Below are positions 2,933 through 38,894 of a DNA stretch of 47,775 nt, piece after piece. Each line of letters begins with the position of its first letter. Position 1 is the stretch's first letter. The position numbers were made by a program, and so were the translations under genes. This stretch comes from a phage: the sequence record PZ445409.1; one strand, written 5' to 3'. The notes under the pieces were generated by a model. The model was given only the letters and a program-made list of their open reading frames with translations. It did not search any database and was not told the origin of the DNA.

Positions 2933-3684
2933 TAGTGAAAGGCGTCGTTAAACAATGGCGCTTTCCTGAAGCAAGCGAGCGGCAATTGCGCCGCTCAATT
3001 CAGGAGGCGATAAGGGATCTTGTTGTGCTGATGCGCAGCAAAACAAAGGGGATGAAATTTGACGCGGACACCGAAGAAATCAACGCCGCAGAGGATGAGA
3101 TTAGTAGCTTCGCGTTAAAGCTAATAGCTGGCATCGCCGCATCACTTCCGGTTATCGGCCTTGCTGTTTATAAATTCAACGCAAAGCAATTTATTAACGT
3201 AGCGAAATCATCGGGAGGTAAGTCAAATTCCGCCGTTATCATCCTTATGGCTATTGGGGCCAATGCGAATGAGAGTTGGTATAGGACGCTATACGGTCAA
3301 TGGCATGACATGACGATCGCATCTCTTCAAAAACTATTTGGAAACATCGTGTCTGACTGGTCAGCCAATATTAGATCGGCAAACTTTCGCGGAATGAGAG
3401 ATAGTCAGGTTAATGAATTGGCTGGTAAGAGATTTGCAGTGTATAGCTCTTGGGGTAAGACAAGGGCTGAAAATATCATAGGCGCTTGGAATAGTAGACT
3501 CATGCGACAGCGTCTTTATGATGCAAAAGTAACTCATTATTTTTGGCATGGTATGCTTGATGACAGAGAGCGATTACAGCATGTACAATGGGAAGGTAAG
3601 CGCATTGCGCTAGATTCTGAACATGATTTTCCTGGTGAGCCTTTCGGTTGTCGTTGTTGGGCCATACCAGATTGGAACAGTTAA
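2929..3684 (+). CDS. minor head / head morphogenesis protein
   Basis: 251-aa ORF, ATGA overlap with portal stop; conserved position after portal. Confidence 0.55.
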   Translation: MIVKGVVKQWRFPEASERQLRRSIQEAIRDLVVLMRSKTKGMKFDADTEEINAAEDEISSFALKLIAGIAASLPVIGLAVYKFNAKQFINVAKSSGGKSNSAVIILMAIGANANESWYRTLYGQWHDMTIASLQKLFGNIVSDWSANIRSANFRGMRDSQVNELAGKRFAVYSSWGKTRAENIIGAWNSRLMRQRLYDAKVTHYFWHGMLDDRERLQHVQWEGKRIALDSEHDFPGEPFGCRCWAIPDWNS

Positions 3685-3694
3685 GAGGTATTAA

Positions 3695-6165: not shown

Positions 6166-6191
6166 TGAATACCACAAAATAGATTTGCACC

Positions 6192-6208
6192 TTTAACAAA
6201 AAGTGCTA
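6192..6208 (+). promoter_or_regulatory. inverted copy of conserved element upstream of capsid gene
   Basis: TTTAACAAAAAGTGCTA flanked by TTGCAC (6185-6190) and TATCAT (6207-6212) with 16-bp spacing; followed by hairpin+T-run 6215-6241. Confidence 0.45.
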
Positions 6209-6214
6209 TCATGA

Positions 6215-9948: not shown

Positions 9949-9966
9949 TTTTAACAAAAAGTGCTA
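9949..9966 (+). promoter_or_regulatory. inverted copy of conserved element abutting RBS of chaperone G
   Basis: TTTTAACAAAAAGTGCTA ends 2 nt before AAGGAG RBS; 15 nt before ATG. Confidence 0.45.
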
Positions 9967-9981
9967 TAAGGAGATCTTGAG

Positions 9982-20716: not shown

Positions 20717-20758
20717 ACTATACACGATCCGACAAGCTGGGTTTAGCAAAAAGTGCTA
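20717..20758 (-). promoter_or_regulatory. phage promoter unit upstream of cor (variant element + TATAGT)
   Basis: Minus strand TAGCACTTTTTGCTAAAC then 18 nt then TATAGT; AAGGAG RBS and cor ATG follow. Confidence 0.5.
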
Positions 20759-21128
20759 CATGTTATTTTTTGTTTTCCGGTGTTATCGGATTTAAGACGG
20801 CGTAAATTTAGCGCAAATTTTAGCCAACATAATAACAATAAATAATCAATAAAATAGATATATACATATAAAATCAATAGTTTATTTATTTATGTATGTA
20901 TATTTGTTTTTTCTTGTTATCTGTGTTCCTTGTGGTTTTGGTTGTTTGTGGTGATTTTTCTTTCTGAGTATCTGTATGTGCCATCATTCATGTGTATGTA
21001 TATAATCCGGCGTATCTGAGAGAACAAGGGAACAAGAAAAATAACACATATTAATCATTAACTTACGAGTCAAATTTGTTTTATTGCCATATGAGAACGT
21101 TTAGAAAACAGAAAAAACAAATCACCTA
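20759..21128. repeat. AT-rich regulatory region A with alternating Pu/Py (GTATGTATAT) blocks and T/G-rich core
   Basis: Noncoding; shares TTCCG-GATAAC elements, GTATsTATAT blocks, T/G-rich core and GGGAACAAGAAAAA (21028-21041) with region B in the same orientation. Confidence 0.5.
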
Positions 21129-26557: not shown

Positions 26558-27487
26558 TTATAGCAGTGATTCGGGCTTGTAGAGTTTTCTTTCTACGCCC
26601 TGTTTAAAATTATCGTTAACAGGCATCATTATGTCAAGACCTCTTTCCTCTGCCGCGATTATCACATCACGATCATCTTTCCGGCAGACTACGCGCATTC
26701 TTCTTTCTCCTTTATATCTATGCGCAACCATTTCAAGATTTGAAGGAGTAAAGCAGGCCCACACCTCTTGACCAGTTGATAAATGAACATGCTGGGAATC
26801 AACCCAATCAAGGCACAAATATATCGTCTTATCTGTGCTACCTGTTTTAACAACAGACCCGCGCGTGTAGTCGCGAGCTAAAAACCAATCCTTTCCATCC
26901 TCATCAATGAAAAGCACGTTACACATTTCATCATCCAGCCCGTCATCATGCACCAGGTGACAAGGTAGCGCGTGAATGTATCGACCATCCTTGACGCCGC
27001 AATCATAATGACAACCTTCCGGCGGATATATCCCCTCATAAACGCTTAAAGGTGTGCGATCGAATTTTAATGTTTTTGCCATCACTTTTTCGCAGCATTC
27101 ATGACTTGCCTGTTTCCCGAACGAGTAACCAGAAGAACGCGAAGCGCGTTTGTTTGCTCTGATCCTGTAATCCTGCGGCACTTTTCCGAGGAAGCGACCC
27201 AAAATGTTGATGGCCTCGCTGTAAGGTTCGCCAGTTAATTTCATTAACCAACCGATCCCCGTGTCGTTACCGCACACGTTGCAGATCGCGCCGCCGTCGC
27301 CCTCTTCATTTAGCTTATCAGTCCATCTAAAACGATCCTTACCGCCGCAGTGTGGGCAAGGCTGATGCTTTTTGTTGAAAACATCGCTATGCAGTCCGCA
27401 AATGCTTTGTAGTGCTTCACGCCATAACCCCTTCATATATGGCAAAACATCTTCTTTCTGATAGGTCATAAAGTTTTCAGTATTCAT
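26558..27487 (-). CDS. DNA primase (zinc-ribbon + TOPRIM-like)
   Basis: 310-aa ORF from ATG 27487 with GAGG RBS after a terminator hairpin; CPHCGG...CNVCG zinc-binding motif and acidic IDEDG cluster. Confidence 0.55.
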   Translation of the reverse strand: MNTENFMTYQKEDVLPYMKGLWREALQSICGLHSDVFNKKHQPCPHCGGKDRFRWTDKLNEEGDGGAICNVCGNDTGIGWLMKLTGEPYSEAINILGRFLGKVPQDYRIRANKRASRSSGYSFGKQASHECCEKVMAKTLKFDRTPLSVYEGIYPPEGCHYDCGVKDGRYIHALPCHLVHDDGLDDEMCNVLFIDEDGKDWFLARDYTRGSVVKTGSTDKTIYLCLDWVDSQHVHLSTGQEVWACFTPSNLEMVAHRYKGERRMRVVCRKDDRDVIIAAEERGLDIMMPVNDNFKQGVERKLYKPESLL

Positions 27488-27542
27488 GGCAAACCTCAAT
27501 AAAAAAGCCCAGCAAATATTATCATTTCGCTGGGCCTTATCA

Positions 27543-28019
27543 TTAGCTATTCGTGCTGTTATCACCTTTGTAGAATCTTCCGCCTGGTTCGTAGTCTGAA
27601 TTTTTGACTACGCGCAACATTTCGTATTTGTCGCAACGGGTAGTAAGAGGCTTGCCGTTAGAATCAAACCGCAGATCTGGACGACAAAACGAGGCGCGGT
27701 ATCCTTTGCATCCATTATATTTGTAGTCGTTATGCACCTTTTGTGCTCCAGCGGCTGAAATCATACCACGCTTTCGCCATTGGTTAACAACTTGCTGAGA
27801 TACGCGCAGACGTCGAGCCATAGCAGGAACGCCGCCGTAATACTCGATCAGAATGTCAAGGCGAGATTTCAGGCTTGCTTTTACCTCATCTCGCAGGATA
27901 AGAAATCCGGTTCGATGTTTTCGTGGCTTTTTGTCTTTACCTCGTCGCGTTCCGTTGTTACCGTTAATAGTGCGCTTGTCGATCTCACCAGTAGACACTG
28001 CAATTCGTGCATCTTTCAT
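27543..28019 (-). CDS. XRE/Cro-like HTH DNA-binding protein
   Basis: 158-aa ORF with GAGGTGA RBS; helix-turn-helix GGVPAMARRLRVSQQVVNQWRKRG; Cys-rich C-terminal part; inverted copy of the conserved 19-bp element in its 5-prime UTR. Confidence 0.55.
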   Translation of the reverse strand: MKDARIAVSTGEIDKRTINGNNGTRRGKDKKPRKHRTGFLILRDEVKASLKSRLDILIEYYGGVPAMARRLRVSQQVVNQWRKRGMISAAGAQKVHNDYKYNGCKGYRASFCRPDLRFDSNGKPLTTRCDKYEMLRVVKNSDYEPGGRFYKGDNSTNS

Positions 28020-31591: not shown

Positions 31592-31634
31592 TAGCACTTT
31601 TTGTTAAAACGCCCGGCCTAGTGTCGGGCATAAT
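31592..31634 (+). promoter_or_regulatory. phage promoter unit (element + spacer + CATAAT)
   Basis: Element directly after TAA stop; 18-bp spacer gcccggcctagtgtcggg identical to the minus-strand unit at 34810-34852. Confidence 0.6.
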
Positions 31635-31667
31635 TATTTCAACGAAGCAAACATGAGGAAATAAAAA

Positions 31668-34142: not shown

Positions 34143-34534
34143 TGAAGAAATTTTTATTTACACCAATCGCAATGGCGGTGATCTTGTCTGGATGTTCAAG
34201 CGTTACGCCACTGACCGGATTAATCGGCAGTAAGCCGGAAATAACAGCACAGGCTGGCGCGGAGAACGTGAAGCAGACAGTTGGCATTACAGCAAAGCAG
34301 GACGCCAGCACAAAACAGGAAACCACAATAAAGGAATCTGCGGTTGACAAGGTGGACACGTCCAGCAAGAAGGATTTCACAACATCAACCATTCAGGCCA
34401 ATACCATCAAGGCAGACAAAATTCAGGTCGTGCAGGGTAATAACGGCAGATGGTACGATCCAATAATCATATGCATGGTTGTGTTCATTGTGCTGATTTG
34501 TCTTTACTGGAGGGAAAAGAAAAAGGAGGCTTAA
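34139..34534 (+). CDS. unimolecular spanin (u-spanin)
   Basis: 131-aa ORF overlapping endolysin stop; N-terminal lipoprotein signal with lipobox LSGC plus C-terminal transmembrane helix ([16 protein letters not shown]); T1 gp11-like architecture. Confidence 0.7.
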
Positions 34535-34550
34535 TGCCTCCTTTATTTTT
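34525..34550. terminator. bidirectional intrinsic terminator after spanin / after 34549-34773
   Basis: A-run, hairpin ggaggcttaatgcctcc, T-run; convergent genes on both sides. Confidence 0.65.
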
Positions 34551-34773
34551 ATGCGTCGGGCCACATATGAGTTTCGTTTGTTGGCTTGTTCGATTCGTCG
34601 TACTGCCTTACTTCAATGCTGCAAGTGTCGCCGTACAGTTCTGCAATCTTGCGCTCATTTTCAACCGCCGATTGCTCACTCCATCCAAAATCCCTGTCGT
34701 AAATTGTCGGTATTTCAGCAGAAGATCCGTTGTCATGATTATATACGCGAACTACTAAAAACTTGCTGGACAT
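34549..34773 (-). CDS. hypothetical protein
   Basis: 74-aa ORF with AAAGG RBS; first gene after promoter unit 34810-34852; ends at bidirectional terminator. Confidence 0.5.
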   Translation of the reverse strand: MSSKFLVVRVYNHDNGSSAEIPTIYDRDFGWSEQSAVENERKIAELYGDTCSIEVRQYDESNKPTNETHMWPDA

Positions 34774-34809
34774 AATTTTACCTTTTGGTTGTTTCGTTTC
34801 GATGAAACA

Positions 34810-34852
34810 AATATACCCGACACTAGGCCGGGCGTTTTAACAAAAAATGCTA
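34810..34852 (-). promoter_or_regulatory. phage promoter unit (element + TATATT)
   Basis: Minus strand TAGCATTTTTTGTTAAAAC + gcccggcctagtgtcggg + TATATT; inverted near-identical copy of 31592-31628. Confidence 0.6.
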
Positions 34853-35044
34853 TTCCATACGCTTTACCGTAACCAGTAATACACCATCATCATTGCATAA
34901 AACATGTTCAGTGGTGCTAAAAGCGCGCATATCTGAATAAAGTAGCGTAAGTAAAGCATGAATAAAATCCTCATGTGATATTGAATTTACGGCGCAGTGC
35001 TTCAAGATCTTGTCTATTAGCTTTTGCCTGGAACAATTCATCAT
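34850..35044 (-). CDS. hypothetical small ORF (alternative frame)
   Basis: 64-aa ORF whose TAG stop is the TAG of the conserved promoter element (as for several other genes); overlaps 3-prime end of 34971-35366 by 74 nt in another frame. Confidence 0.25.
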   Translation of the reverse strand: MMNCSRQKLIDKILKHCAVNSISHEDFIHALLTLLYSDMRAFSTTEHVLCNDDGVLLVTVKRME

Positions 35045-35366
35045 CGCCCATCTCCCCTATTCTCGCCATATCCCTGATCCAGTCGTTGCGCATACCATCC
35101 AGGCTATACAATTCGAATCCGAAAGGCCGCTTTGACGATCCTTTGGACCAGTATTTTCCGCAGACCCCATCTATATAACCAGCCGTCATCATTCTTGCGC
35201 AAAATTCCTTAGATGCAAGGCTGGCGAACATTCGCGGCGTAAGTCCGGCGGCCCGTGCGAGCCGCTCACATTCTCTATGCTGATAGATAAATTTGGCTAT
35301 GTGCTGCCTGTTAAACCAGTCGTATGACTCACACCATTTATACAGATCAAGCAAAAACATAATCAT
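34971..35366 (-). CDS. hypothetical protein
   Basis: 131-aa ORF; ATG overlaps stop of upstream ATPase gene (ATGA), indicating translational coupling. Confidence 0.5.
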   Translation of the reverse strand: MIMFLLDLYKWCESYDWFNRQHIAKFIYQHRECERLARAAGLTPRMFASLASKEFCARMMTAGYIDGVCGKYWSKGSSKRPFGFELYSLDGMRNDWIRDMARIGEMGDDELFQAKANRQDLEALRRKFNIT

Positions 35367-36946
35367 CCCAGCAGTATTGGATTGACAAAAATAACACCAT
35401 TAATCACACAAACATAATTTCTTTCTTCCAGCATTGGCAGCAAGTGCCCTTCTATCCTCTTCATTACGCCAGCCTGACCAACGAAAGGTTTTACCTTTCT
35501 CGCTGATTCGTACAGGGCGCGAATATTCAGGATCCCTTTGTTAGCCTTGCCGTGTCTAGTGATCAATTCAATCAATTTACCCATTTCAGCATCATCACCA
35601 GCATAACCAGAAGCATTGGCGGCGCTAATGTATGTTTTGCTCAATTCCTGAAACATGATCAGCGCCTCTTGCATTGTTTCCACGTCGATCTCTTTCGACT
35701 TCTGCGGGTATCCGGCAGGATTAAACCAGTTGCGGATAACATGCAGGACGGAAGCAAGCCTGATCACCTGTTTATCCATTTTACCCAGCGCACCGCGTAA
35801 CATTGTATGAGAATACTTTCCGCCGTCTGCAAGATGCGGTTCCATATCCTGGCGAGCAATGTTGAGCACTCGCATAGCTGAACGGCTTATTTTCAGCGAT
35901 ATATTTGATTCGCTCATGATGTTATGCACCAATTGATAATATTGGGCCTTCAATTCAGGATCCACCGCCTCATAGGTAGAATCACCATTTTCATCAATGA
36001 ATGAGCGACGGCCTAAGAATGATTCCTCACGGACCAACAAAAAGCGCTCACTCACACCGATACCGCGCGATCCAGCGTCCATGATTCCGCTTATCGTTTC
36101 ATCCTGGGCTATAACGCTCATACATCCAAGCGCGCGAAAACTCATGTTATTGTCAGCATTAGCACGGGCAATTGATACGTGACCATTATCCCACGCCTTA
36201 AGCACTAGCTCGCTGTTAGTCTTCCTTTCGCTATTGGCATAGGTCAAGCCTAACAGGCTGTTAATACTTGTTGCTTCGTCAGATATTACGGCAAAGTTAC
36301 CTTGCTTGTTGTTGATTTTCGCCAAGCCTTCTGGAGTGGTATCTGAAACAGGGAAAGTTATATCACACATCTTTTCCAGCTTCTCCTCCAGATCCTCTTT
36401 TTCCTGGTATAGAGATTCCATATCAGCGCCTGATCTTTCGCTTTTCATCTCCTTTGCAAGACCTGCCAACTTTGCCTGTATTTTCTTTCTTTCCTTGCGG
36501 CGTTGCTCGTTGATCTTCTCAACTTCCGCAATCATCGGAGCAATAGCCATACTGTTGATCGCAGATTTACCAGTTGACGGCGGCTGGCTTGTAACTACGT
36601 AAAGCGCAGTCGGCTGATCTGTTCCGTGGTAGTCAACTGTGAATCGACCAAGCATAGCGGCAGAAATACATCCGATAAAGTGCATGTAGGCCGATGATTC
36701 AGGGAATTGAACAGATCTCGCAAGATTGCGCGCCAGCTTACCAACTACATCAACATCATTCCCAAGTGAAATAACAGGGTAGCGGTCGTTACCGCCGTTA
36801 ATATCTTCCACCTGGCCCCAATAGCTTGAAGATTGGCGGTATCCGTTGGCCTGAATGGATACACGAACAGGGGAAATACCTTGAGATTCGGCGGTTTCAA
36901 TGATTTGTTTCGGTGATAACTGACTTGTTTCAAATGAAAAATTCAT
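35363..36946 (-). CDS. P-loop NTPase (DUF3987/primase-helicase-associated-like)
   Basis: 527-aa ORF with AGGAG RBS; deviant Walker A (QPPSTGKS), central charged coiled-coil segment; driven by promoter unit 36974-37016. Confidence 0.5.
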   Translation of the reverse strand: MNFSFETSQLSPKQIIETAESQGISPVRVSIQANGYRQSSSYWGQVEDINGGNDRYPVISLGNDVDVVGKLARNLARSVQFPESSAYMHFIGCISAAMLGRFTVDYHGTDQPTALYVVTSQPPSTGKSAINSMAIAPMIAEVEKINEQRRKERKKIQAKLAGLAKEMKSERSGADMESLYQEKEDLEEKLEKMCDITFPVSDTTPEGLAKINNKQGNFAVISDEATSINSLLGLTYANSERKTNSELVLKAWDNGHVSIARANADNNMSFRALGCMSVIAQDETISGIMDAGSRGIGVSERFLLVREESFLGRRSFIDENGDSTYEAVDPELKAQYYQLVHNIMSESNISLKISRSAMRVLNIARQDMEPHLADGGKYSHTMLRGALGKMDKQVIRLASVLHVIRNWFNPAGYPQKSKEIDVETMQEALIMFQELSKTYISAANASGYAGDDAEMGKLIELITRHGKANKGILNIRALYESARKVKPFVGQAGVMKRIEGHLLPMLEERNYVCVINGVIFVNPILLG

Positions 36947-36973
36947 TAAATCGACTCCTATTTGGTGCGGTGT

Positions 36974-37016
36974 ATGTTACCGCACCAATACTACCCTTAT
37001 TTGTCAAAAAGTGCTA
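36974..37016 (-). promoter_or_regulatory. phage promoter unit (variant element + TAACAT)
   Basis: Minus strand TAGCACTTTTTGACAAATA + 18 nt + TAACAT; upstream of ATPase gene. Confidence 0.5.
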
Positions 37017-37025
37017 TTTGATCCG

Positions 37026-37235
37026 CTAGATTGCAACCAGTAGGCGATCTGGCTGGCGGTCGCTGTAGCATTCTCCGGTTACATCATCCTTAAAAGTGAA
37101 GTAAAGCGACTTGTGATATGAATACCCAATCAGCCAACCTTCCGCAGTTCTCTTTATTGGCCTGACAATATCGCCAGGCTTGAAAGTTGCAGTTGTGGCG
37201 TGAGTTACTTTATATCGGTATTCACTGCGGATCAT
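37026..37235 (-). CDS. hypothetical protein
   Basis: 69-aa ORF; ATGA overlap with upstream gene. Confidence 0.5.
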   Translation of the reverse strand: MIRSEYRYKVTHATTATFKPGDIVRPIKRTAEGWLIGYSYHKSLYFTFKDDVTGECYSDRQPDRLLVAI

Positions 37236-37618
37236 GAATATTTGGCCTCAAAAAGATAAGAGTAACCAGCAGAGAATCCGACCTCCTCGCGGTAGAGCGT
37301 CCATCGGTCGCCGTCCTCATCGAAGACGTAACCAGCAACTGATCCAAGAACGCGACCCTGTTCGACCTGGTAACGCTTTCCAGCTTTAAAACTTTTTTTG
37401 GTTTTCACCCGGTGATCAACAAACGTACATAGAATCGTCTTTGCCTTGATAGTGCGGTATTCGTCCTGGTTGGCTGATTCCCACTTCGCGCCCTTAGCCA
37501 GCGCCTTAACCTGAAATTCCTCCACCTCGATCACGTCGTCGCTGCCAGCTACTTTTGTGTAAACAGTTTTATAGCGACAGTTCATCAATTTGTTGTCGGA
37601 ATTGCGGATAACTTTCAT
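37232..37618 (-). CDS. hypothetical protein
   Basis: 128-aa ORF with GGAG RBS; first gene after promoter unit 37651-37693. Confidence 0.5.
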   Translation of the reverse strand: MKVIRNSDNKLMNCRYKTVYTKVAGSDDVIEVEEFQVKALAKGAKWESANQDEYRTIKAKTILCTFVDHRVKTKKSFKAGKRYQVEQGRVLGSVAGYVFDEDGDRWTLYREEVGFSAGYSYLFEAKYS

Positions 37619-37650
37619 TTGATTTTCTCCAGTTGTTTTCGTTGAAACGC

Positions 37651-37693
37651 ATTATGCCCGACTCAAGGTAGGGCGTTTTAACAAAAAGTGCTA
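37651..37693 (-). promoter_or_regulatory. phage promoter unit (element + CATAAT)
   Basis: Minus strand element starts with methyltransferase-like gene stop TAG; hexamer at 37656-37651. Confidence 0.6.
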
Positions 37694-38377
37694 TTTTGAG
37701 TTTGCCTCAAATACGGCGCGAGCAAATCCTCGCGGAGTGAGGGAGCGTAGTTGCTTTGTTCTGGCAGACTTACCTCCTAAAAACTTCCAACCCCAAAAGA
37801 ACATTACTCCCTCATCATTGCGTAACGGCTTGCGTTCCGGTTCGGTAAATCCGTTGCCGCACCAGATAGCCGTCCTTTTTGTGTAGCCATCCTTTAGCGG
37901 CATCTTGGGGTGAAAAGATCCATCGGATTCGTCCAGGTAGTTACCAAAATCGCGCGGATTGAAATAAAAATCAGGCTTGCGCCATAGCGTTGATAGTCGG
38001 CCTACAGGATTCTCAGCCATCCAGGGAACACCGAAATGATTCCCGACAGTTTCAACCATGATTGCATTTTTGAGCGCGATCTGAATATCATCATCGCTTC
38101 GCACGTGCTTGCTTCCTGATTGGGCAAACATGGTGCAGTCTGGAAATCCAAATACAATATCTGGTTTTGGAATATCCATCTTACTGATTCTTTCAATGAA
38201 ATTTTCATCAATCCACATATTAACATAATGCAGATTTTCATTCTTCATCTTGATGAAATATTCGCCGTGATTTCCCTCATCAGCGTTAAAGCAATAGCAT
38301 TGATAGCCAGCCTTCGCATATTCAAGCAGCATGATTCCAGATCCATCAAACATTGAGTAAGCAACTTTATTTCCCAT
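37691..38377 (-). CDS. DNA C5-cytosine methyltransferase-like protein lacking a target-recognition domain
   Basis: 228-aa ORF from ATG 38377 (track start 38437 is TTG); motif I SMFDGSG, motif IV-like DIVFGFPDC, motif VI-like MAENPVG, motif X-like RSLTPRGFARA; no region long enough for a TRD; TAG stop is first triplet of promoter element. Confidence 0.55.
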   Translation of the reverse strand: MGNKVAYSMFDGSGIMLLEYAKAGYQCYCFNADEGNHGEYFIKMKNENLHYVNMWIDENFIERISKMDIPKPDIVFGFPDCTMFAQSGSKHVRSDDDIQIALKNAIMVETVGNHFGVPWMAENPVGRLSTLWRKPDFYFNPRDFGNYLDESDGSFHPKMPLKDGYTKRTAIWCGNGFTEPERKPLRNDEGVMFFWGWKFLGGKSARTKQLRSLTPRGFARAVFEANSK

Positions 38378-38894
38378 GATTTTTATGATACCCCAATTCA
38401 TTCTCGGCTTTACGTTTTGCGGCAACAGCATCCCCAAAACTGGAGAAACAACCTATATAAATCCTACTTCCTCGCTTTCCGCTTCCAACCCTTACAACCC
38501 ATTTGCCATGTTTATTTTTATGCACACCTGGTATGCCACTTGTATTGTTTTTCTGCTTTGATGTGTTTCGCATATTTCCTTTGTGATCTTTTAACTCAAA
38601 GTTTATTGCTCTGTTATCAGTCGTAATGTGATTTAAGTGATCAACCTCCATTCCTTCCGGTATAGGCCCATAGTGCATTTCATAGCATATTCTATGAACT
38701 TTCAGGTTGTAACGTTTTCCGTTTACAGTAAGTGCGGTTTCTAAATATCTGCCACCACTACCCAAAGAGCCAACCTCATTACCAGCATTGCAAGCATTCC
38801 ATTGTTTAACTCTTGATTGGTGAATATCTTTTCTTTCTTTCCAGAACAGCTTTCCAGTTTCTGGATTGTATGTAAAGTAATCGTGCCAATTCAT
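38367..38894 (-). CDS. HNH homing endonuclease with AP2-like DNA-binding domain
   Basis: 175-aa ORF with GAGGTGA RBS; HNH motif EVDHLNHITTDNRAIN; C-terminal GVHKNKHGKWVVRVGSGKRGSRIYIGCFSSF AP2-type fold signature; 3-prime end overlaps start of methyltransferase-like gene. Confidence 0.7.
   Translation of the reverse strand: MNWHDYFTYNPETGKLFWKERKDIHQSRVKQWNACNAGNEVGSLGSGGRYLETALTVNGKRYNLKVHRICYEMHYGPIPEGMEVDHLNHITTDNRAINFELKDHKGNMRNTSKQKNNTSGIPGVHKNKHGKWVVRVGSGKRGSRIYIGCFSSFGDAVAAKRKAENELGYHKNHGK

What the first reader, a model, noticed from the sequence alone, without database searches (positions are those of the whole stretch)
34850..36946. Deviant-Walker-A ATPase with a translationally coupled partner and an overlapping alternative-frame ORF
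The 527-aa protein (35363-36946) has a noncanonical P-loop (QPPSTGKS) and a central charged coiled-coil segment. Given that primase and helicase are encoded elsewhere, its role is unclear (DUF3987-like). Its stop overlaps the ATG of a 131-aa ORF (ATGA). A 64-aa ORF in another frame (34850-35044) overlaps that gene's 3-prime end by 74 nt and ends on the TAG of the downstream promoter element, a position used as a genuine stop by several neighbouring genes.
Basis: partly seen in the sequence, partly recalled or inferred. Interest (0 to 1): 0.45.

Follow-up and report, generated by a model that had tools for sequence, protein, structure and literature searches.

The report
T1-like phage MCM-type helicase operon
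This is an ordinary three-gene unit of a T1-like coliphage, already in the databases: an MCM-like (DUF3987) helicase, a small winged-helix protein, and a real 64-residue gene whose start lies inside the end of the gene before it.

Summary
The window is a Drexlerviridae (Warwickvirus) phage, about 97% identical to published genomes that annotate the same three genes.

- **131-aa partner.** It is a winged-helix protein found only in this phage family.
- **64-aa ORF.** It is a real gene. It occurs in 73 of 84 related loci, always in the +1 frame, always from an ATG inside a conserved Asp-Asp/Glu pair of the upstream gene. Its dN/dS is about 0.03-0.15 outside the overlap. The overlap ranges from 17 to 146 nt because the upstream tail varies. 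The gene is missing from the T1 and KP1801 records.
- **"Promoter element" ending in TAG.** This is the direct repeat already described in phage TLS.

What the 131-aa and 64-aa proteins do remains unknown.

The parts
36999..37017 (-). Variant copy of the family-wide direct repeat (ATAGCACTTTTTGACAAAT), directly upstream of the helicase gene. A -10-like TAACAT (36974-36979) follows at the usual 18-nt distance from the motif. Likely the promoter region of the three-gene unit.
   Evidence: The motif register is the same as in the other copies. Promoter function is inferred, not shown.
35363..36946 (-). 527-aa DUF3987 / MCM-like AAA+ (SF6) helicase. Walker A QPPSTGKS is aa 121-128 (36563-36586). 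A helical hairpin spans aa 127-192. Walker B is ISDE, aa 221-224. SERF (aa 299-302) resembles the MCM SRFD arginine finger. A C-terminal winged helix covers about aa 450-527.
34971..35366 (-). 131-aa (or 129-aa from the ATG at 35360) winged-helix protein, abutting the helicase stop. The conserved core ends at ...DDELF (about aa 112). The last ~19 aa are a variable read-on tail that overlaps the next gene.
34850..35044 (-). 64-aa conserved small gene in the +1 frame. Its first 74 nt overlap the 3' end of the winged-helix gene. A GGGGAG Shine-Dalgarno lies at 35052-35057, 7 nt before the ATG.
   Evidence: phrog_9539, E 1.6e-25. tblastn finds it in 678 phage records down to ~40% identity. It is present in 73 of 84 loci, always in the +1 frame. 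dN/dS is about 0.03-0.15 in the non-overlapping part. The anti-SD duplex is -8.3 kcal/mol.
34810..34853 (-). Direct-repeat copy ATAGCATTTTTTGTTAAAA (34835-34853), whose TAG is the stop of the 64-aa gene. It is followed by an 18-nt spacer holding a hairpin (34815-34833) and a -10-like TATATT (34810-34815). Likely the promoter of the next gene (74 aa, 34549-34773). The hairpin plus T-run also fits a terminator-like pattern.
   Evidence: The repeat is described for phage TLS in PMC11447400. Its function is untested.

Best explanation
The region is one transcription unit of a T1-like (Drexlerviridae) lytic phage, bounded by two copies of the family's intergenic direct repeat.

**Gene 1** encodes a DUF3987 protein, an AAA+ ATPase of the MCM-like (SF6) kind with a C-terminal winged helix. 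It most likely forms a ring and acts as the phage's replicative DNA helicase. In that role it would work with the separately encoded DnaG-type primase and the host polymerase, since the phage encodes no polymerase of its own. This role is inferred.

**Gene 2** abuts the helicase stop codon and encodes a small winged-helix protein. I infer that it is a DNA-binding or helicase-associated accessory factor.

**Gene 3** (64 aa) is a genuine protein-coding gene. It is translated from its own ATG, which lies inside the conserved ...S/G-D-D/E-E-L-F... end of gene 2, in the +1 frame. The part of gene 2 beyond that point is an unconstrained read-on tail of variable length, and that variability is why the overlap is long here (74 nt).

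QPPSTGKS is the family's normal P-loop variant.
For: **Family and fold (shown)**
- Pfam DUF3987, 151 bits.
- Walker A, Walker B and SERF are invariant across 27 homologues down to 35% identity.
- The model ends in a winged helix, as described for DUF3987 helicases (PMC4889955).

**Activity of the family (from the literature)**
- PriCT-DUF3987 AgaPH is an oligomeric, ATP-dependent, Walker A/B-dependent 5'->3' helicase (PMC11724360).

**Replication role (inferred)**
- The gene is found across the family, including T1, Webervirus, Tlsvirus and Rtp-like phages, and in 925 phage records in total.
- In the distant phage KlebP_265 it sits beside the primase and the SF2 helicase.
- The only other helicase in the window is SF2.

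**Gene 2**
- A confident AF2 winged-helix model.

**Gene 3**
- Protein-level conservation in 678 records.
- Constant length of 63-67 aa (73 aa in one clade), constant frame and constant ATG in 72 of 72 tblastn-positive loci, with an in-frame stop 1-7 codons upstream of that ATG (one truncated locus, L034, differs).
- dN is 0.05-0.6 while dS is saturated or 0.9-3.8 outside the overlap.
- The Asp codon supplying the AT of the ATG is always GAT, although GAT:GAC is 64:32 elsewhere in the gene.
- The upstream tail is 6-48 aa long, cannot be aligned between clades, and is absent where gene 3 is absent.
- Every stand-alone relative among 1.84 billion representative proteins is 49-69 aa long. No fusion proteins were found.
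Against: - No experiment exists on any Drexlerviridae member, so helicase activity, ring formation and an essential replication role are all inferred.
- The primase is 8 kb away, not adjacent as is typical for DUF3987 genes.
- No MCM-type N-terminal OB/zinc domain is evident in the model's secondary structure. No helix-2 insert is evident either.
- AgaPH runs 5'->3', the opposite of MCM. "MCM-like" therefore describes the fold, not necessarily the mechanism.
- I recall older genetics reporting that T1 DNA synthesis needs host elongation functions. I could not retrieve that work, and it could limit the phage helicase's role.
- Eleven of 19 representative lineages have no convincing Shine-Dalgarno before the small ORF. 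Webervirus has none at all. How the small ORF is initiated there is unexplained.
- The functions of the 131-aa and 64-aa proteins are unknown. There was no Pfam, NCBIfam, PADLOC, PDB or profile match.
Confidence: 0.72

Rival explanations
1. The 64-aa frame is not translated from its own start. Instead it is reached by a programmed +1 (or -2) ribosomal frameshift from the winged-helix gene, giving a ~170-aa fusion protein. This would resemble the two-product arrangements of dnaX or of phage tail chaperones.
For: - The frame relation is +1 in all 73 loci and the overlap is always present.
- More than half of the lineages lack a good Shine-Dalgarno before the ATG.
- The gene 2 tail looks like non-functional sequence.
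Against: - The ATG is conserved at a synonymous site of gene 2, which uses GAT every time.
- A stop in the small frame lies 1-7 codons upstream of the ATG, so any shift would have to happen inside the overlap. The overlap can be as short as 17-35 nt.
- I saw no slippery motif shared between clades in the few overlap sequences I read by eye, and the gene 2 stop sits at a different position in each clade. No systematic motif search was run.
- No fused homologue exists among 1.84 billion representative proteins.
- Eight of 19 lineages, including this window, do have a strong Shine-Dalgarno at correct spacing.
Confidence: 0.07
2. The DUF3987 protein is not the replicative helicase. It would instead be an accessory AAA+ ATPase, for example a MoxR/RavA-like remodeller, an anti-defence factor or a recombination motor, with replication relying on host DnaB.
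For: - The curated T1 record calls it only a "putative ATPase" with RavA similarity.
- The gene lies among small early genes, far from the primase.
Against: - The model has a C-terminal winged helix and an MCM-like SERF finger.
- A DUF3987 family member has demonstrated helicase activity.
- The gene is adjacent to the primase in KlebP_265.
- There is no PADLOC match beyond a coiled-coil artefact.
Confidence: 0.18
3. The 64-aa ORF is a chance open frame with no product.
For: It is absent from the T1 and KP1801 annotations and from all 11 Rtp-like loci. It has no known domain.
Against: - tblastn conservation reaches ~40% identity in 678 records.
- The frame stays open at constant length in lineages whose synonymous sites are saturated.
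- dN/dS is far below 1 in the 39-45 codons that overlap nothing.
- It matches phrog_9539 at E 1.6e-25.
Confidence: 0.03

Closest known systems
DUF3987 (PF13148) helicases of phages and mobile elements, e.g. AgaPH (PriCT-DUF3987) of Seonamhaeicola; Kazlauskas et al. 2016 SF6 group
   Same: - A full-length Pfam match.
- The Walker A variant, the Walker B DE pair, the AAA+ core and a C-terminal winged helix.
- Encoded by a virus that also carries a primase.
   Different: - No PriCT or primase domain is fused.
- The primase gene is not adjacent here (8 kb away).
- The N-terminal ~80 residues have no recognisable domain.
- The protein is followed by a clade-specific winged-helix protein and a small protein.
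- Activity is untested.
Archaeal/eukaryotic MCM (SF6) replicative helicases
   Same: - A similar P-loop flavour (xxPSTGKS here against GDPGTAKS, the latter from memory).
- SERF here against the MCM SRFD arginine finger.
- A C-terminal winged helix.
   Different: - No Pfam MCM match.
- No OB-fold or zinc N-terminal domain is evident.
- A long helical hairpin is inserted after the P-loop helix.
- No clear helix-2 insert.
- The characterised DUF3987 member moves 5'->3', opposite to MCM.
- Sequence identity is only 10-18%.
SCCmec Cch and SaPI5 Pri-Rep (MCM-like helicases of staphylococcal mobile elements)
   Different: Cch belongs to a different Pfam family (DUF927, per PMC5862659); I did not check the family of SaPI5 Pri-Rep. 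Both are weaker structural matches than MCM proper, and their partner genes differ.
Out-of-frame overlapping gene pairs in phages (overprinting and internal starts)
   Same: A downstream gene starts inside the 3' end of the upstream gene in another frame. One frame is strongly constrained and the other is relaxed.
   Different: The start position is fixed across a whole phage family while the overlap length drifts from 17 to 146 nt. The overlapped part of the upstream gene appears dispensable, since it is absent in Rtp-like phages.
TLS/T1 21-nt direct repeats (aaATAGCACnnnTTGnTAAAA; PMC11447400)
   Same: The same consensus, the same orientation relative to transcription and the same position upstream of genes. 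The window holds 16 copies.
   Different: The published work left the function open (stoperator, enhancer site or UP element). Here I additionally note a -10-like hexamer at a fixed 18 nt after the repeat, and the use of its TAG as a stop codon.

Membership tests
DUF3987 (PF13148) SF6-type helicase family | Significant full-length match to the Pfam model, above the gathering score | tested here: met
   E 5.8e-44, 151.2 bits against a cut-off of 27. Residues 82-431 align to model positions 3-350 of 364.
DUF3987 (PF13148) SF6-type helicase family | Conserved Walker A (GxxxxGK[ST], with variation) and Walker B (DExx) | tested here: met
   QPPS(T/A/S)GKS and (I)S(D/A)E are conserved in 27 homologues at 35-91% identity. 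The motif definition comes from PMC11724360.
DUF3987 (PF13148) SF6-type helicase family | [quoted passage not shown] | tested here: met
   The AF2 model shows H451-468, E472-474, H475-482, H494-508, E512-515 and E518-521 at pLDDT about 90. The feature is described in PMC4889955.
DUF3987 (PF13148) SF6-type helicase family | Fusion to, or immediate adjacency with, an AEP or DnaG primase | tested here: not met
   The primase is at 26558-27565, about 8 kb away. Adjacency is seen only in the distant relative KlebP_265. This is a frequent association, not an obligatory feature.
DUF3987 (PF13148) SF6-type helicase family | ATP-dependent DNA unwinding as an oligomer | not testable with these tools
   Shown only for AgaPH (PMC11724360).
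MCM proper (PF00493) | Sequence match to the MCM AAA+ domain model | tested here: not met
   No MCM family appears among the Pfam hits at E <= 1.
MCM proper (PF00493) | MCM-type AAA+ fold | tested here: met
   [not shown]
MCM proper (PF00493) | N-terminal OB-fold/zinc DNA-binding domain and a helix-2 insert | tested here: inconclusive
   The model's first 100 residues are short helices and coil. No beta-hairpin is seen between strand 2 and the Walker B strand, and a helical hairpin (127-192) follows the P-loop instead. This was judged from secondary structure only.
Deviant Walker A ATPases (ParA/MinD/NifH) | Signature lysine in KGGxxGK[ST] | tested here: not met
   The motif is QPPSTGKS, and the fold matches are AAA+, not SIMIBI. 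The family definition is from established knowledge.
   No such family appears in Pfam, PHROGs, NCBIfam or the PDB searches.
Anti-phage defence proteins (PADLOC) | Match to a defence-system model | tested here: not met
   Only a marginal coiled-coil hit to JetC, E 0.012.
Winged-helix proteins (131-aa protein) | H1-H2-H3 plus a beta-hairpin wing topology | tested here: met
   [not shown]
Genuine overlapping protein-coding gene (64-aa ORF) | Purifying selection on the alternative frame and conservation in diverged relatives | tested here: met
Programmed +1 frameshift product | A conserved shift site and no independent start | tested here: not met
   A conserved ATG with a stop just upstream. No fusion homologues were found. 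No slippery site shared between clades was seen on reading the overlap in four phages, but no motif scan was run.

The most novel reading that the evidence does not exclude
The helicase, winged-helix protein and 64-aa protein would form a self-contained origin-recognition and helicase-loading module. It would be specific to Drexlerviridae and built around an MCM-type helicase that has to cooperate with a bacterial DnaG-type primase and host Pol III. The family-wide, position-fixed internal start of the small gene would tie its synthesis to ribosome traffic through the winged-helix gene, which would explain why several lineages have no Shine-Dalgarno sequence. Such coupling would set the ratio of the two partners.
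Probability: 0.15. Interest if true: 0.5.

Novelty: already known. Interest (0 to 1): 0.2.

Why it matters
The value is mostly practical.

- **Naming.** The gene should be called an MCM-like (DUF3987, SF6) helicase, not an enigmatic ATPase.
- **Annotation.** A 63-67-codon gene conserved across most of the Drexlerviridae is missing or truncated in reference annotations. It is absent from T1 (AY216660) and KP1801, and truncated in phSE-2. The "YdbL" label attached to its neighbour has no profile support in the window's copy.
- **Replication biology.** T1-like phages may pair an archaeal/eukaryotic-type helicase fold with a bacterial primase and the host polymerase. Nobody has tested this in this phage family, and T1 is an easy system in which to do so.

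Tried and rejected
**Searches that found nothing useful**
- NCBIfam for six local proteins: no hits.
- PADLOC: only a coiled-coil artefact.
- Sequence search of the PDB with the 527-aa protein: only coiled-coil noise. Profiles of the 131-aa and 64-aa families: nothing.
- Profile-profile comparison of the small-protein family against the helicase and the winged-helix families, testing the idea that it is a paralogous winged helix: no relation.
- Pfam on 15 small-protein homologues: no consistent family.
- Exhaustive phmmer of the small protein, looking for fusions with the winged-helix protein: none. The four large hits are repetitive junk proteins.
- Looking for the two partner genes next to distant DUF3987 genes (KlebP_265, Vibrio phage D82): absent. 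The 63-aa ORF after the KlebP_265 helicase is unrelated.
- Iterons or origin-like repeats within 34400-37800: none.
- Literature on the host dna-gene requirements of T1: nothing retrievable.

**Analyses that were inconclusive**
- An ungapped codon-position control in the upstream gene was spoiled by register shifts between clades, so I did not use it.

**Readings considered and rejected**
- The hairpin after the 64-aa ORF as a simple terminator. It lies inside the fixed 18-nt spacer of a repeat/-10 unit that recurs upstream of genes. A promoter is the better reading, although a dual role is not excluded.
Full report
**What the window is.** The 2.2-kb stretch is 97% identical to many published E. 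coli phages of the Drexlerviridae, subfamily Tempevirinae, genus Warwickvirus (FritzSarasin, tiwna, vB_EcoS-95 and others). In FritzSarasin the same three ORFs are annotated with the same boundaries, including the 74-nt overlap: bas04_0046 "putative helicase", and bas04_0045 and bas04_0044, both "hypothetical". The genome map is typical of a T1-like phage. It has terminase, head and tail genes, a RecE/Erf/SSB block, a DnaG-type primase, an SF2 helicase, Dam, a lysis cassette and a leftward block of small early genes.

**Checking the observation.** All coordinates are right, on the minus strand.
- The 527-aa ORF (35363-36946) starts at an ATG preceded by GGAG.
- Its TGA overlaps an ATG (ATGA). 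The start conserved among homologues is the Met two codons later, 2 nt after the stop.
- The 64-aa ORF (34850-35044) overlaps the 131-aa ORF (34971-35366) by 74 nt, in the +1 frame.
- QPPSTGKS is residues 121-128.

**The ATPase.**
- Pfam gives a full-length DUF3987 match (E 5.8e-44). PHROGs gives phrog_2373 "DNA helicase" (E 1e-243).
- In an alignment of 27 homologues down to 35% identity, several motifs are invariant or nearly so: QPPSxGKS, the Walker B SDE, AQDE, SERF and RGxxGKxDK.
- An AlphaFold2 model built on that alignment is confident (pLDDT 88.8, pTM 0.86). It shows a small N-terminal helical region, an AAA+ core in which the helix after the P-loop is extended into a 65-residue antiparallel helical hairpin (127-192), a beta-hairpin just before the sensor-1 strand, a lid, and a C-terminal winged helix.
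- Foldseek against the PDB returns MCM subunits as the top 25 hits.

This agrees with the literature. Kazlauskas et al. 2016 linked phage DUF3987 proteins to MCM (SF6), noted their C-terminal winged helix and their association with primases, and proposed them as replicative helicases (PMC4889955). A 2025 study showed that a PriCT-DUF3987 protein is an oligomeric, Walker A/B-dependent 5'->3' helicase (PMC11724360).

The "charged coiled-coil" is part of the Pfam domain. The match is collinear over 350 residues with no large insertion. The P-loop is a family-typical variant and has nothing to do with ParA-type "deviant" Walker A motifs.

The gene is present throughout the family, in T1, Webervirus, Tlsvirus and Rtp-like phages, and in 925 phage records overall. 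In the distant phage KlebP_265 it lies next to the primase and the SF2 helicase. The second helicase in the window is SF2 (ResIII plus Helicase_C) and so is not an obvious hexameric replicative enzyme. I therefore read the 527-aa protein as the phage's probable replicative helicase. That last step is inference, because no Drexlerviridae member has been tested.

**The 64-aa ORF.** It matches phrog_9539 (E 1.6e-25). tblastn finds it in 678 phage records, 492 of them below 60% identity, including T1 at 45%.

I collected 84 loci: 80 IMG/VR contigs plus T1, KP1801, phSE-2 and the window. The results were as follows.
- The ORF is present in 73 loci. It is always in the +1 frame relative to the upstream gene.
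- It starts at an ATG embedded in the conserved ...(S/G)-D-(D/E)-E-L-F... motif of that gene. A stop in its own frame lies 1-7 codons upstream of the ATG in all but one truncated locus (L034, 13 codons).
- Its length is constant at 63-67 aa, or 73 aa in one clade.
- The overlap varies: 17, 35, 41, 56, 59, 71, 74, 77, 89 or 146 nt. The cause is that the upstream gene runs on for 6-48 poorly conserved residues after ELF.
- The 11 Rtp/Jk06-like loci lack the small gene. In them the upstream gene stops right after ELF(S/A).
- Outside the overlap, dN is 0.05-0.6 while dS is saturated or 0.9-3.8, so dN/dS is about 0.03-0.15. Inside the overlap dS falls to 0.35-1.1, as expected for dual coding.
- The Asp codon that supplies the ATG is GAT in every lineage, although GAT:GAC is 2:1 elsewhere in the gene.

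Together this shows a real gene with its own conserved start. The small frame is the constrained one, and the tail of the winged-helix gene is the passenger.

A strong Shine-Dalgarno precedes the ATG in the window (GGGGAG, 7-nt spacer, -8.3 kcal/mol) and in 8 of 19 lineages. It is absent in others, notably Webervirus. Initiation there is unexplained.

A +1 frameshift fusion is unlikely, for three reasons. I saw no slippery motif shared between clades on reading the overlaps, although I ran no formal motif scan. The gene 2 stop sits at a different position in each clade. And no fused homologue exists among 1.84 billion representative proteins.

The protein has no detectable relatives of known function. 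It is not annotated in the T1 and KP1801 records and is truncated in phSE-2.

**The "promoter element".** The TAG that ends the 64-aa ORF belongs to ATAGCA(C/T)TTTTTGTTAAAA. This matches the 21-nt direct repeat already reported for phage TLS and noted in T1 and Rtp, whose function is undetermined (PMC11447400). The window has 16 copies at 2 or fewer mismatches against 0.11 expected.

In most copies I inspected, a -10-like hexamer (CATAAT, TACATT, TATAGT, TATATT or TAACAT) follows 18 nt after the repeat (17 in one copy), and a Shine-Dalgarno plus start codon follow some tens of nt later. That is a promoter-like layout with an unusual upstream element. A variant copy containing TTGACA lies directly upstream of the helicase gene. 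The three genes are therefore bracketed by two such units.

The consensus scan also flags the hairpin in the downstream spacer as terminator-like. An identical 18-nt spacer occurs at 31611-31628.

**Verdict.** It is an MCM-like DUF3987 helicase, a winged-helix protein and a conserved small overlapping gene. The modest new points are:
- family-wide evidence that the small ORF is real;
- the fixed internal start combined with a drifting overlap;
- the gaps in the reference annotations.

Noticed in passing
window, 16 sites (e.g. 1566, 9949, 28031, 30520, 31591, 34835, 36999, 37676, 40085, 41169, 42502, 45123): The TLS-type direct repeat ATAGCACnnnTTGnTAAAA occurs 16 times against 0.11 expected. 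In most copies inspected a -10-like hexamer follows 18 nt later (17 in one), and the spacer often contains an inverted repeat. This looks like a phage-specific promoter class in which a conserved upstream box replaces a normal -35. The published description leaves the function open.
   Followed up: partly
window 6191-6209, 9949-9967, 20741-20759 (minus strand): Three copies of the repeat point against the direction of the surrounding plus-strand structural genes. If the repeats are promoters, these would drive antisense or leftward transcripts.
   Followed up: no
window 31598-31635 (+) and 34810-34846 (-): Two repeat units share an identical 18-nt spacer (GCCCGGCCTAGTGTCGGG) that forms a hairpin. 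A third unit, at 37650-37687, is similar. This suggests recent copying of whole promoter units, or a shared operator.
   Followed up: no
L003 (T1, AY216660.1) 3477-3677; L004 (KP1801) 3474-3677; L005 (phSE-2) 3489-3686: The conserved 65-67-codon small gene is not annotated in the T1 and KP1801 records and is annotated only as a truncated 45-aa CDS in phSE-2. In KP1801 the upstream gene is annotated with a 48-residue out-of-frame-looking tail.
   Followed up: yes
phage collection, records MG065643, MG065665, MG065675 and about 18 others: About 21 records named "Campylobacter phage" (host C. jejuni) carry this T1-like module at 72-88% protein identity to coliphages. They look like Drexlerviridae and may be mislabelled or contaminants.
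   Followed up: no
window 38367-38894 (-): A 175-aa HNH_3 endonuclease ORF (Pfam E 6.7e-15) overlaps the listed TTG start of the downstream ORF 37691-38437 by 71 nt. That downstream ORF corresponds by position to the gene annotated as a Dcm-like methyltransferase in FritzSarasin, although it gave no Pfam hit here. It may be a homing-endonuclease insertion. I did not compare it with relatives.
   Followed up: no
window 34971-35366 (-) and homologues: Several GenBank records name this protein, or the 64-aa one, "YdbL". The window's copies of both proteins match no Pfam or NCBIfam model, so the name appears to be a propagated annotation error.
   Followed up: partly
window 36961-36983 (-): A perfect 8-bp inverted repeat (GGTGCGGT...ACCGCACC) brackets the -10-like TAACAT upstream of the helicase gene. 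It could be an operator or an RNA 5' hairpin.
   Followed up: no
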